Notes under the pieces: model-generated
Seen by the model: the letters and a program-made list of their open reading frames with translations, nothing else
Database searches by the model: none
What the model was told of the DNA's origin: nothing
Translations under genes and position numbers: made by a program
Part shown: positions 8,103-9,185 of the stretch, piece after piece
Layout: each line of letters opens with the position of its first letter
How positions within the stretch are numbered: position 1 is the stretch's first letter
Assembly (NCBI GenBank): GCA_964291405.2
Contig: OZ219926.1
Span: 1,333,825 to 1,397,824, forward strand
Direction: 5' to 3'
Length of the DNA stretch: 64,000 nt
DNA from: Thermodesulfobacteriota bacterium
Lineage (GTDB): Bacteria > Desulfobacterota > Binatia > Bin18

Positions 8103-9185
8103 ATGATTGACGTTTCCTATACCACTGCTCCCTGCCCTGTCCGGGCGGACATCGAGGAAGCGCATACCCTTTTTTGGCAAAAACTCGCCGCTCCCGGCAC
8201 GTGGTGGACTGGTGCTGAGCGTGTGGCTATCGGTGCAGAGGTGCGCCAAGCCCGTCACTGCCAGCTGTGCCAAGAGCGGAAGGCGGCCCTTTCGCCCACA
8301 GCGATCCAGGGGACTCACGATACTGGGGGAGTGTTACCGGAAACCGCCGTTGAGATGATTCACCGGGTCACGACGGACCCAGGCCGGCTGAGTAAGCGGT
8401 GGTACGACGACCTGCTGGCCCGGGGACTGCCAGACACCCACTATGTCGAGGCGCTGGGCGTCGTTGGGCGCACGGTCAGTGTCGATTCGTTTTGTCGTGG
8501 CCTGGGTCTCCCGTTGCATCCCCTCCCAACCCCCGTTGCAGGCGAACCGAGCCGGCGGCGGCCGCCTGAAGCCACACTCGATGGTGCCTGGGTTCCTATG
8601 GTTCCAAACGGACAAGCGAATGTCATCCGTGCCCTCAGTCTCGTCCCGGCCGAAGTGCACCTCAGTATCGAAGTTCTGCTTCCGGTTCAGTACATGGAAA
8701 TCTCTGAGGTCAGGAATTTGTCGAGCGATCCCGGCCGTGCGATCAGTCGCTCCCAGATAGAGCTCCTCGCCGCGCGTGTCTCCGCGCTCAACCAGTGCTT
8801 CTATTGAACGACCGGTCATACGACACTGCTCCGGGGGAGCAGCCAAGTTGATGGAATCGATGTAGAACTGACGTCAGTTGTTGCTCCAGGTGTAGAGAGC
8901 GGCGTGCCTCATGGGGCATGCCTGACCGCCTTTGCGGAGGCCGTCCTCGGAACCGATGCTACCGCTCTGGTAGCGGCTCGTCAGCAGGTCCTGGCAGAGC
9001 TCGGTCCAGCAGGGCTGGTTGATGCGGCGGCCGTGGTGGCCACGTTCATGCAGATGGACCGGATTGCGGATGGGGCCGGGATCCCTCTCGACGCCGCTTT
9101 TGTTGAGCCAACCCAGGAAATGCGGACCAGACTGGGATTCAACGACTTCGCCTCGGCGCAGAATACGCTGAGCGTGGCTACCTAG
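8103..9185 (+). CDS. AhpD/carboxymuconolactone-decarboxylase-family protein with an in-frame UGA (candidate selenoprotein, CxxU motif)
   Basis: ORFs 8085..8807 and 8904..9185 are in the same frame, 819 nt apart. The only stop between them is TGA at 8805-8807. The context LNQCFY-TGA-TTGH reproduces the family motif C-x-x-C-x-x-x-H with TGA at the second Cys. A hairpin lies just downstream. A GGAGG RBS favours the ATG at 8103. Confidence 0.75.
8821..8850 (+). promoter_or_regulatory. candidate bacterial SECIS stem-loop for UGA 8805-8807
   Basis: A perfect stem CTGCTCC/GGAGCAG (8826-8832 / 8836-8842) closes a G-only loop. A possible lower stem CGAC/GTTG pairs 8821-8824 with 8847-8850. The upper stem starts 18 nt after the UGA. 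Confidence 0.6.

What the first reader, a model, noticed from the sequence alone, without database searches (positions are those of the whole stretch)
8103..9185. AhpD/CMD-family gene split by UGA exactly at the second Cys of the CxxCxxxH active site (CxxU selenoprotein candidate)
Directly seen:
- ORFs 8085..8807 and 8904..9185 are in the same frame (offset 819 nt).
- The 32 codons between them contain no stop, and the single interruption is TGA at 8805-8807.
- The local sequence is SRSQIELLAARVSALNQ-C-F-Y-U-T-T-G-H.
- Downstream lies a perfect 7-bp hairpin, CTGCTCC-GGG-GGAGCAG (8826-8842), with a possible lower stem.

Established knowledge: the alkylhydroperoxidase AhpD / carboxymuconolactone decarboxylase family uses a C-x-x-C-x-x-x-H motif, and AhpD-like selenoproteins with Sec in that motif have been reported from bacteria and marine metagenomes.

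The gene is co-oriented with the upstream BVMO-BVMO-GST-SDR genes and a downstream HupE/UreJ transporter gene.
Basis: partly seen in the sequence, partly recalled or inferred. Interest (0 to 1): 0.75.

Follow-up and report, generated by a model that had tools for sequence, protein, structure and literature searches.

The report
Known AhpD-related selenoprotein gene (CFYUT)

Summary
One in-frame TGA (8805-8807) interrupts a 360-codon reading frame (8103-9185) at C-F-Y-[TGA]-T-T-G-H, and a 7-bp hairpin follows at 8826-8842.

With Cys substituted at the TGA, the read-through product matches NCBIfam NF041238 [quoted passage not shown] end to end (445 bits, cutoff 175).

- **Conserved UGA:** all 84 family genes in 81 related loci plus the window, from many phyla, carry TGA at this codon. 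Rare full-length homologues carry Cys there.
- **Conserved hairpin:** it sits at a fixed distance in 80 distinct sequences, shows compensatory changes and frozen synonymous codons, and meets every constraint of the published bacterial SECIS model.
- **Active site:** the AhpD proton-relay residues are present with the same spacing, with Sec replacing the second Cys.
- **No recoding or error:** TGA ends 11 of 36 other genes in the window, and four independent assemblies share this TGA.

A 2026 review equates the family with "hypothetical protein 1" of the 2005 Sargasso Sea selenoproteome, and NCBI already gives the family name to a Candidatus Binatia homologue. It is already known and of low interest.

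Additions: a second, PrdB-like UxxC selenoprotein gene at 41537-42697; selD/selA/selB/tRNA-Sec genes beside orthologues in 12 of 80 loci; and a probable double AhpD-fold architecture.

The parts
8103..9185 (+). Complete coding sequence of the AhpD-related selenoprotein (360 aa, Sec at residue 235; stop TAG at 9183-9185).
   Evidence: Translation. NCBIfam NF041238 scores 445.3 bits over profile positions 1-357 of 357. tblastn matches span residues 1-360 across the TGA in related genomes.
8091..8095 (+). Shine-Dalgarno-like GGAGG, 7 nt upstream of the ATG at 8103.
   Evidence: Read directly from the sequence. Homologue N-termini align to the ATG at 8103.
8259..8270 (+). N-domain C53-x-x-C56 motif (HCQLCQERK), a second conserved Cys pair.
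   Evidence: C53 and C56 are invariant in alignments A1 and A3. hhalign places C53/C56 in register with C232/U235.
8760..8762 (+). Glu220, which occupies the position of the AhpD proton-relay glutamate, 12 residues before Cys232.
   Evidence: At least 97% conserved in 84 Sec-form genes. The spacing equals Glu118-Cys130 of M. tuberculosis AhpD and Glu36-Cys48 of PA0269 (PMC3141380).
8796..8819 (+). Active-site motif C232-F-Y234-U235-T-T-G-H239 (the CxxUxxxH motif).
   Evidence: It aligns to the CxxCxxxH motif of solved AhpD-like proteins.
8805..8807 (+). UGA codon read as selenocysteine (residue 235).
   Evidence: TGA in 84 of 84 family genes. Cys (TGT/TGC) in full-length homologues P0037, P0049 and P0063.
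8826..8842 (+). Bacterial SECIS apical hairpin: 7-bp stem CUGCUCC/GGAGCAG with loop GGG, 25 nt after the UGA.
   Evidence: -11.1 kcal/mol. Family-wide, 95.2% of cells are paired and there are 30 double-change cells against 8.2 in shuffles. Synonymous codons are frozen. It meets the bSECIS model constraints (PMC13188914).

Best explanation
Positions 8103-9185 are one intact gene for a ~360-residue selenoprotein of the family NCBIfam NF041238 (AhpD_rel_CFYUT, 'alkylhydroperoxidase-related (seleno)protein'). This family is the 'hypothetical protein 1' of the 2005 Sargasso Sea selenoproteome.

During translation, the hairpin at 8826-8842 acts as a bacterial SECIS element (inferred). It would recruit SelB-GTP-Sec-tRNA(Sec) to the ribosome paused at UGA 8805-8807, so that selenocysteine is inserted and translation continues to the TAG at 9183.

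The protein has an AhpD-type active site, E220...C232-x-Y234-U235-x3-H239. The selenolate of U235 takes the place of the second Cys of the AhpD CxxC pair, and C232 can close a selenenylsulfide with it. It is therefore most likely a thiol/selenol-disulfide oxidoreductase or hydroperoxide reductase of the AhpD type. Its physiological substrate and reductant are unknown.

Shown here: gene integrity, family membership, conservation of the UGA, conservation of the hairpin and the RNA-level constraint on it, and the active-site signature. Inferred: actual Sec insertion in this organism and the redox chemistry.
For: - **Family match.** NF041238 equivalog hit, E 1.7e-133, 445 bits against a cutoff of 175, full length. 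Pfam CMD is just above its gathering score at residues 213-245.
- **Homologues stop at the same codon.** 113 of the 120 best protein homologues are ~245-aa gene calls ending ...C[FY]Y, that is, truncated at the same UGA. The full-length homologues P0037, P0049 and P0063 have Cys there.
- **UGA across phyla.** All 84 family genes in 81 loci plus the window carry TGA followed by T-x-x-H. The taxa include Binatia, Gamma- and Alphaproteobacteria, Myxococcota, Chloroflexota, Spirochaetales, Planctomycetota and Acidobacteriota-type MAGs.
- **Downstream half is real coding sequence.** It aligns to the Cys forms and to PDB 6k40 through residue 327.
- **Hairpin conservation.** The alignment of 80 distinct sequences is gapless. 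The 7 pairs at columns 21-27/33-39 are 95.2% paired, against 29-53% when the partner is slid. There are 30 double-change cells against 8.2 +/- 2.2 in shuffles (0 of 500 reach the observed value). Loop G29 and G31 are invariant.
- **Synonymous constraint.** Leu at U+8 is CTC in 84 of 84 genes, against 34% elsewhere in the same genes. Arg at U+9 is CGT or CGG in 83 of 84 and never CGC, which is 43% elsewhere. Ser at U+11 is never TCN, which is 63% elsewhere.
- **bSECIS model met.** The stem is 7 bp, the loop is 3 nt beginning with G-G, the spacing is 25 nt and the MFE is -11.1 kcal/mol, against the constraints quoted in PMC13188914.
- **Hairpin is weaker in two of three Cys forms.** The three Cys forms show 7/7, 5/7 and 4/7 pairs.
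- **No recoding, no error.** TGA is the normal stop of 11 of 36 Pfam-supported genes in the window. The TGA is identical in four assemblies.
- **Link to Sec machinery.** selA, an Ndh-selD fusion, selB or tRNA-Sec lie within 6 kb of orthologues in 12 of 80 loci.
- **A second selenoprotein gene** with a SECIS-like hairpin lies in the same window.
- **Active site and fold.** The residue spacing equals that of M. tuberculosis AhpD and PA0269 (PMC3141380). The AlphaFold2 model of Cys homologue P0049 (pLDDT 94.2) matches AhpD structures, with a TM-score of 0.78 normalised to the target 6k40.
Against: - No selA, selB, selD or tRNA-Sec gene lies in the 64-kb window, and the rest of the genome could not be searched. 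The organism's ability to decode Sec is therefore inferred, not shown.
- Rfam has no match.
- No member of this family has been characterised biochemically, so the redox function rests on motif and fold.
- The protein fails the curated cutoffs of bona fide AhpD (TIGR00777, 12.9 against 192) and of peroxid_rel (TIGR01926, 31.6 against 81.8).
- Gene neighbourhood is not conserved across the family, so context gives no functional partner.
Confidence: 0.93

Rival explanations
1. The TGA is a genuine stop codon. The locus would then encode a truncated 234-aa protein, possibly with a separate 93-aa product from GTG 8904, or it would be a pseudogene of a former Cys-containing AhpD-like gene.
For: Automatic gene callers annotate it this way in related genomes: 234 aa plus 93 aa in L001. 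TGA is an ordinary stop in this window. No Sec machinery is seen in the window.
Against: - A pseudogene would not keep the same nonsense codon, an open downstream frame, conserved downstream residues (T236, H239, L243, R244, D307, R320, D323, G326) and a covarying hairpin in 84 genes from many phyla.
- The 32 codons between the TGA and GTG 8904 are conserved as protein and include the catalytic His.
- A truncated product would lack the His and about a third of the protein, including the rest of the AhpD-like domain.
Confidence: 0.03
2. The UGA is read through by a mechanism other than Sec insertion, such as near-cognate Trp or Cys insertion or a lineage-specific reassignment of UGA.
For: Read-through itself is strongly implied by the conservation, and the inserted amino acid has not been identified experimentally.
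Against: - 11 of 36 Pfam-supported genes in the window end in TGA, so UGA is not reassigned.
- The codon replaces a redox-active Cys of a CxxC motif, the classic Sec/Cys pair.
- The downstream hairpin meets the bSECIS model, including the loop G-[G/U].
- Orthologues sit next to selA, selB, selD and tRNA-Sec genes.
- NCBI curates the family as a selenoprotein.
Confidence: 0.03
3. The TGA is a sequencing or assembly error for TGC/TGT, and the real gene encodes the Cys form.
For: Cys forms of the family exist (P0037, P0049, P0063).
Against: The same TGA and the same flanking sequence occur in three other independently assembled close relatives (L001, L002, L003) and in all of the top 80 genome loci.
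Confidence: 0.01

Closest known systems
NCBIfam NF041238 'AhpD_rel_CFYUT', alkylhydroperoxidase-related (seleno)protein, equated with 'hypothetical protein 1' of the Sargasso Sea selenoproteome (Zhang, Fomenko & Gladyshev 2005, PMC1088965; mapping in PMC13188914)
   Same: Full-length equivalog match at 445 bits against a cutoff of 175. It has the same C-F-Y-U-T motif, the same length and the same UGA position. NCBI already gives this name to a Candidatus Binatia homologue (P0009, 65% identity over the N-terminal part).
   Different: Nothing of substance. This member lacks a ~15-residue segment (...GPDADLY...) that most members have between the two halves. It sits in a lineage-specific BVMO-GST-SDR cluster.
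AhpD-like selenoproteins (COG2128 / TIGR01926, 'AhpD-like 1 and 2', CxxU) of marine metagenomes (PMC1088965, PMC2398784)
   Same: AhpD/CMD fold, Sec at the second position of the CxxC motif, and a SECIS element immediately downstream.
   Different: Those are treated as a separate family in the 2026 review table. The window protein scores 31.6 bits on TIGR01926 against a cutoff of 81.8, and it carries an additional ~200-residue N-terminal domain with its own CxxC.
Characterised AhpD proteins: M. tuberculosis AhpD (1knc/1gu9), D. radiodurans AhpD (6k40), P. aeruginosa PA0269
   Same: All-helical AhpD fold. The model of homologue P0049 matches 6k40 with a TM-score of 0.78 normalised to the target. 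The proton-relay signature Glu-x11-Cys-x-[His/Tyr]-Cys-x3-His has identical spacing.
   Different: Sec replaces the second Cys. The protein is twice as long and fails the TIGR00777 cutoff (12.9 against 192). No adjacent ahpC was found among the neighbouring genes scanned. Activity is untested.
Sestrin2 (5dj4), a eukaryotic protein built from two AhpD-like halves
   Same: There is a weak whole-length structural similarity (TM-score 0.46 over ~380 columns). This is consistent with two tandem AhpD-like domains in one chain.
   Different: About 10% sequence identity. Sestrin2 has no Sec and a different biology (leucine sensing). The similarity is architectural only.

Membership tests
NCBIfam NF041238 AhpD_rel_CFYUT (alkylhydroperoxidase-related selenoprotein) | Whole-protein HMM score above the curated equivalog cutoff, with full-length coverage. 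| tested here: met
   445.3 bits against a cutoff of 175, E 1.7e-133, residues 13-351 on profile positions 1-357 of 357.
NCBIfam NF041238 AhpD_rel_CFYUT (alkylhydroperoxidase-related selenoprotein) | C-F-Y-U-T motif with U encoded by an in-frame UGA. | tested here: met
   NQCFY-TGA-TTGH at 8796-8819. The same motif and the same TGA are present in 84 of 84 family genes.
Bacterial selenoprotein gene (Sec decoding) | The in-frame UGA aligns with Cys in homologues (a Sec/Cys pair). | tested here: met
   P0037, P0049 and P0063 have CFYC, encoded by TGC or TGT. Solved AhpD-like proteins have Cys at that column.
Bacterial selenoprotein gene (Sec decoding) | [quoted passage not shown] | tested here: met
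   7-bp stem, loop GGG, 25 nt spacing, -11.1 kcal/mol. The family loop consensus C-G-[G/U]-G-N fits the N1-G-[G|U]-N-N2 pattern.
Bacterial selenoprotein gene (Sec decoding) | The SECIS structure is conserved with compensatory changes across homologues. | tested here: met
   95.2% of cells are paired. Four of 7 pairs have double changes. There are 30 double-change cells against 8.2 in shuffles (0 of 500), and the slid controls reach only 29-53%. Synonymous codons are frozen.
Bacterial selenoprotein gene (Sec decoding) | selA, selB, selC (tRNA-Sec) and selD are present in the same genome. | not testable with these tools
Indirect support: a second selenoprotein gene in the window and sel genes next to orthologues in 12 of 80 loci.
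Bacterial selenoprotein gene (Sec decoding) | Selenium is physically incorporated at the UGA position. | not testable with these tools
   This needs proteomics or 75Se labelling.
AhpD / carboxymuconolactone decarboxylase superfamily (Pfam PF02627 CMD) | Pfam gathering score. | tested here: met
   23.9 bits against a cutoff of 23, residues 213-245. This is marginal and covers only the motif helix pair.
AhpD / carboxymuconolactone decarboxylase superfamily (Pfam PF02627 CMD) | All-helical AhpD-like fold. | tested here: met
   Tested by proxy. The AlphaFold2 model of Cys homologue P0049 (46% identical; pLDDT 94.2, pTM 0.93) matches 6k40, 2prr, 2pfx, 3c1l, 2oyo and 6e8l with TM-scores of 0.64-0.78 normalised to the target. 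The window protein itself could not be submitted.
AhpD / carboxymuconolactone decarboxylase superfamily (Pfam PF02627 CMD) | Proton-relay residues Glu-x11-Cys-x-(His/Tyr)-Cys-x3-His (PMC3141380). | tested here: met
   E220, C232, Y234, U235 and H239 have identical spacing, and each is at least 97% conserved in 84 genes. Sec stands in for the second Cys.
Bona fide AhpD (NCBIfam TIGR00777, partner of AhpC) | HMM score above the curated cutoff. | tested here: not met
   12.9 bits against a cutoff of 191.95. The protein is not an orthologue of M. tuberculosis AhpD.
Bona fide AhpD (NCBIfam TIGR00777, partner of AhpC) | Adjacent ahpC gene, or demonstrated AhpC-reducing or peroxidase activity. | tested here: not met
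   No peroxiredoxin gene was found among the neighbouring genes scanned in the window, and no family-wide conserved neighbour exists. Enzymatic activity is not testable here.
AhpD-like selenoprotein / peroxid_rel (NCBIfam TIGR01926) | HMM score above the curated cutoff. | tested here: not met
   31.6 bits against a cutoff of 81.8. The family is related but distinct.

The most novel reading that the evidence does not exclude
The NF041238 protein may not be a general peroxide-defence enzyme. It may instead be a Sestrin-like fused double AhpD-fold protein that shuttles electrons between an N-domain CxxC and a C-domain CxxU. Its recurrent placement next to Ndh-selD, selA, selB and tRNA-Sec (12 of 80 loci, in Gammaproteobacteria, Spirochaetales and Deltaproteobacteria MAGs) could then reflect a role in selenium metabolism itself, for example reducing selenium compounds to supply selenide to SelD. 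The alternative is that the adjacency reflects co-transfer of selenoprotein genes with the Sec trait.
Probability: 0.08. Interest if true: 0.6.

Novelty: already known. Interest (0 to 1): 0.2.

Why it matters
For annotation, the two fragments (a 234-aa ORF and a 93-aa ORF) should be merged into one selenoprotein CDS with transl_except at 8805-8807. The same applies to the PrdB-like gene at 41537-42697. Most homologues in the large protein collection are stored as truncated halves: 113 of the 120 best hits for this family.

Biologically, the finding indicates that this Candidatus Binatia lineage uses selenocysteine. It also supplies a clean, deeply conserved SECIS example, with frozen synonymous codons and covariation, for a family that is almost always found in the Sec form. 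It opens no new question, because the family, its CxxU motif and its SECIS were reported in 2005 and are curated by NCBI. The function of the family remains uncharacterised, and that is the only real gap.

Tried and rejected
- **Rfam.** A search of the window at gathering thresholds, and of 8760-8920 at E <= 10, found nothing relevant.
- **tRNA-Sec in the window.** ARAGORN found none.
- **Sec machinery in the window.** Pfam and NCBIfam scans of 42 window ORFs found no SelA, SelB or SelD. Small ORFs were not all scanned.
- **Lower stem of the SECIS.** It is predicted for the single sequence but is absent from the family consensus. Rejected.
- **Conserved operon partner.** All-against-all clustering of neighbouring ORFs over 82 loci found no family-wide neighbour. 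The BVMO-GST-SDR and HupE context is confined to close Binatia relatives. A functional link to the BVMO cluster is therefore only speculation.
- **Structure of the window protein.** The Cys homologue P0049 was modelled instead.
- **Internal duplication.** hhalign of the N half against the C half gave an in-register CxxC/CxxU alignment but weak statistics (E 0.0049, probability 7%). It is kept as a suggestion only.
- **Other split genes.** A scan for other single-TGA-split frames gave many chance cases. Only the case at 41990 had homology support.
- **Global UGA reassignment.** Rejected.
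Full report
**Observation.** ORFs 8085..8807 and 8904..9185 share a frame. Translating 8103-9185 gives 360 residues with one internal stop, TGA at 8805-8807, in ...RVSALNQCFY*TTGH..., and the 32 codons up to GTG 8904 are open. The hairpin CTGCTCC-GGG-GGAGCAG is at 8826-8842 and folds at -11.1 kcal/mol, with 0 of 200 shuffles as stable. A GGAGG lies 7 nt before the ATG at 8103, and homologue N-termini align to that ATG. 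The neighbours are a CoA-transferase (minus strand), then an acyl-CoA dehydrogenase, two 542-aa FMO/BVMO-like monooxygenases, a GST and an SDR upstream on the + strand, and HupE/UreJ downstream on the + strand. No terminator-like site lies between the gene and HupE. The best terminator-like site follows HupE at 10228-10248.

**What it is.** With Cys substituted at the stop, the read-through product matches NCBIfam NF041238 'AhpD_rel_CFYUT', an equivalog model described as 'alkylhydroperoxidase-related (seleno)protein'. The score is 445.3 bits against a cutoff of 175, E 1.7e-133, covering profile positions 1-357 of 357. The model name spells out the motif found here. Pfam CMD (PF02627) matches residues 213-245 just above its gathering score.

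[quoted passage not shown] The 2005 Sargasso Sea paper introduced 'hypothetical protein 1' as a new CxxU selenoprotein family with a SECIS-like stem-loop (PMC1088965). AhpD-like CxxU selenoproteins in general are among the most abundant marine selenoprotein families (PMC2398784). The family is therefore published and curated.

**Organism.** The closest genomes are Candidatus Binatia bacterium MAGs: OY763426.1 at 98% and OX638322.1 at 97%. A third assembly, L001, has the same gene order and the same split into 234-aa and 93-aa gene calls. NCBI already names a 65%-identical Binatia homologue 'alkylhydroperoxidase-related (seleno)protein' (P0009).

**Is the UGA decoded?**
- Of the 120 best protein homologues, 113 are ~245-residue gene calls ending ...C[FY]Y. 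That is the signature of gene callers stopping at the same UGA. Three full-length homologues have CFYC.
- At the DNA level, all 84 family genes in 81 loci plus the window carry TGA at this codon, followed by T-x-x-H. The taxa span Binatia, Gamma- and Alphaproteobacteria, Myxococcota, Chloroflexota, Spirochaetales, Planctomycetota and Acidobacteriota-type MAGs.
- The C-terminal part aligns to the Cys forms and to the solved D. radiodurans AhpD 6k40 through residue 327.
- Residues after the UGA are at least 97% conserved in the 84 genes: T236, H239, L243, R244, L274, A280, D307, F315, R320, D323 and G326.
- The TGA is identical in four independent assemblies.
- TGA ends 11 of 36 Pfam-supported genes in the window, so it is an ordinary stop here.

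A pseudogene, a sequencing error and a reassigned code are each excluded for practical purposes.

**SECIS.** The 54 nt starting at the UGA align without gaps in 80 distinct sequences. A stem pairs columns 21-27 with 33-39, and it is 95.2% paired. Pair 22-38 occurs as CG 48, AU 15, UG 9 and GC 4. Pair 23-37 occurs as UA 43, UG 32 and CG 4.

There are 30 double-change cells against 8.2 +/- 2.2 in shuffles, and 0 of 500 shuffles reach the observed value. Sliding the 3' partner lowers pairing to 29-53%. RNAalifold independently predicts the same helix. Loop positions G29 and G31 are invariant, and the loop reads C-G-[G/U]-G-N.

Synonymous sites are frozen in the hairpin:

| Codon | In the hairpin | Elsewhere in the same genes |
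|---|---|---|
| Leu at U+8 | CTC in 84 of 84 | CTC 34% |
| Arg at U+9 | CGT or CGG in 83 of 84, never CGC | CGC 43% |
| Ser at U+11 | AGC/AGT in 78 of 84, never TCN | TCN 63% |

The constraint is therefore on the RNA and not only on the peptide.

[quoted passage not shown] The window element has a 7-bp stem, loop GGG, 25 nt spacing and -11.1 kcal/mol, so it meets all four. Among three Cys homologues the hairpin is intact in one (L082, 7/7 pairs), eroded in one (L084, 5/7 with central C-C mismatches) and absent in one (L083, 4/7). This is the pattern expected if the hairpin serves the UGA (n = 3 only).

**Sec machinery.** The window has no tRNA gene and no SelA, SelB or SelD among the 42 ORFs scanned. 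The rest of the genome could not be searched. Two indirect lines support Sec competence.

First, the window contains a second candidate selenoprotein gene at 41537-42697.
- It has an in-frame TGA at 41990-41992 in VLLTPV-U-PLC-PRT, a UxxC motif.
- It matches Pfam GRDB and, across the UGA, NCBIfam PrdB (116.6 bits, below the equivalog cutoff).
- Full-length homologues have C-P-L-C there, and 40 of 120 hits are C-terminal fragments, most of which start just after the UGA.
- A hairpin GCGUAC-CGUGU-GUACGC follows 17 nt after the UGA, at -8.0 kcal/mol.

Second, Sec-machinery genes lie within 6 kb of orthologues of the AhpD-related gene in 12 of 80 loci. These are SelA (8 loci), a Pyr_redox_2-SelD fusion (9 loci), SelB (verified by Pfam in 2 loci, with a similar 630-aa ORF in a third) and tRNA-Sec (3 loci). 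L049, L058 and L062 show tRNA-Sec, a SelB-sized ORF and selA in a row, and an Ndh-selD fusion follows in L058 and L062.

**Mechanism of the protein.** PMC3141380 gives the AhpD proton relay as Glu118, Cys130, His132, Cys133 and His137 in M. tuberculosis, and as Glu36, Cys48, Tyr50, Cys51 and His55 in P. aeruginosa PA0269. The window protein has Glu220, Cys232, Tyr234, Sec235 and His239 with identical spacing, and each is at least 97% conserved. From my own recollection of the AhpD literature, not checked here, the second Cys (Cys133) is the attacking nucleophile, which is where Sec would give the greatest gain.

The AlphaFold2 model of Cys homologue P0049 (46% identical; pLDDT 94.2, pTM 0.93) matches AhpD-like crystal structures: 6k40 with a TM-score of 0.78 normalised to the target, and also 2prr, 2pfx, 3c1l, 2oyo, 6e8l and the debrominase Bmp8. 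Over its whole length it matches the two-AhpD-domain protein Sestrin2 weakly (TM-score 0.46). The N-terminal ~200 residues carry a conserved C53-x-x-C56-x-x-R-K (both Cys invariant in the 22- and 44-sequence alignments). hhalign aligns this in register with C232-x-x-U235, though with weak statistics (E 0.0049, probability 7%).

I therefore read the protein as a fused, probably duplicated AhpD-fold oxidoreductase with a CxxC in one half and a CxxU in the other. The chemistry is inferred: the selenolate attacks a peroxide, disulfide or sulfenate substrate, a selenenylsulfide forms with C232, and an unknown thiol donor recycles the site.

The protein is not an orthologue of bona fide AhpD (TIGR00777, 12.9 bits against a cutoff of 192) or of the 'peroxid_rel' family (TIGR01926, 31.6 against 81.8). 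No peroxiredoxin partner is nearby among the genes scanned, and no neighbour is conserved family-wide. The BVMO-GST-SDR context is shared only with close Binatia relatives, so a link to detoxifying peroxides from uncoupled monooxygenases is speculation.

**Verdict.** The feature is real, and its recoding aspect is mechanistically well supported. It belongs to an already published and curated selenoprotein family, and NCBI already gives the family name to a homologue in the same class. Novelty: already known. Interest: low (0.2).

The practical value is corrected annotation of two selenoprotein genes in the window, plus a well-documented SECIS example. The residual open question is what the family does, and whether its recurrent adjacency to sel genes is functional. 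That question is modestly interesting, and this window does not address it.

Noticed in passing
window 41537-42697 (+); TGA at 41990-41992; hairpin 42004-42020: This is a second selenoprotein candidate, a PrdB/GrdB-family gene split by an in-frame TGA in VLLTPV-U-PLC-PRT (UxxC). The evidence:
- The read-through product aligns to NCBIfam PrdB across the UGA (116.6 bits, below the cutoff of 300).
- Cys homologues have CPLC at that position.
- 40 of the 120 best homologues are C-terminal fragments, most of which start just after the UGA.
- A SECIS-like hairpin GCGUAC-CGUGU-GUACGC follows 17 nt downstream (-8.0 kcal/mol).

It corresponds to the known 'PrdB-like' UxxC selenoprotein group of marine metagenomes.
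   Followed up: partly
L049 9314-12863; L058 7713-12999; L062 8007-13081; also L014, L038, L040, L042, L053, L059, L060, L063, L079: Sec-machinery genes lie within 6 kb of the AhpD_rel_CFYUT gene in 12 of 80 loci. They are tRNA-Sec, SelB, SelA and a Pyr_redox_2(Ndh)-SelD fusion. In three Gammaproteobacteria MAGs, tRNA-Sec, a SelB-sized ORF and selA lie in a row next to the gene, and an Ndh-selD fusion follows in two of them.
   Followed up: partly
L005 (UGA at 6745 and 7981); L058 (UGA at 5404 and 6745): Two tandem paralogues of the CFYUT selenoprotein gene, each with its own TGA and SECIS hairpin, occur in a Binatia MAG and in a Gammaproteobacteria MAG.
   Followed up: no
L082 896-949 (Cys homologue P0049): A Cys-form homologue (TGT) still carries an intact 7/7-pair SECIS-like hairpin. 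This looks like a recent Sec-to-Cys conversion with a fossil SECIS. Its relative L084 has an eroded hairpin, and L083 has none and has also lost the His.
   Followed up: partly
L040 8785-10155 (-): A DinB_2 + FGE-sulfatase protein (the EgtB/SenA-like architecture) sits between selA and the Ndh-selD fusion, next to the CFYUT gene. It may mark a selenoneine-type selenium pathway beside the Sec genes.
   Followed up: no
window 8103-9185, around residues 170-175: The window protein and its closest relatives (P0001, P0003, P0094) lack a ~15-residue segment (...EETGPDADLY...) that most family members have between the N and C halves.
   Followed up: no
protein P0085 (NCBI 'alkylhydroperoxidase-related (seleno)protein', Pseudomonadota MAG): This full-length record shows Val (CFYVTSSH) where the family has Sec or Cys. 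It was not determined whether this is a real codon or an artefact of how U was stored.
   Followed up: no
window 3193-4821, 4914-6542 and 44534-46195 (+): Two tandem 542-aa FMO/BVMO-like paralogues lie just upstream, and a third 553-aa one lies 36 kb away. The window is rich in oxygenases and hydrolases: three luciferase-like monooxygenases, TauD, two epoxide hydrolases, three Amidohydro_2 proteins and two CmcJ/NvfI oxidoreductases.
   Followed up: no
window 18519-19982 (-): A 487-aa protein has three rhodanese domains. Its similarity to the 'rhodanese_LYCAU (seleno)protein' family is sub-threshold (102 bits against a cutoff of 115), and it has no internal stop.
   Followed up: no
window 37814-40417: This ~2.6-kb stretch has lower G+C (0.52) and no ORF of 150 aa or more. 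It holds only small ORFs, including a 118-aa ORF at 39203-39559 and a 90-aa ORF on the minus strand at 39929-40201; neither was scanned against any family library.
   Followed up: no
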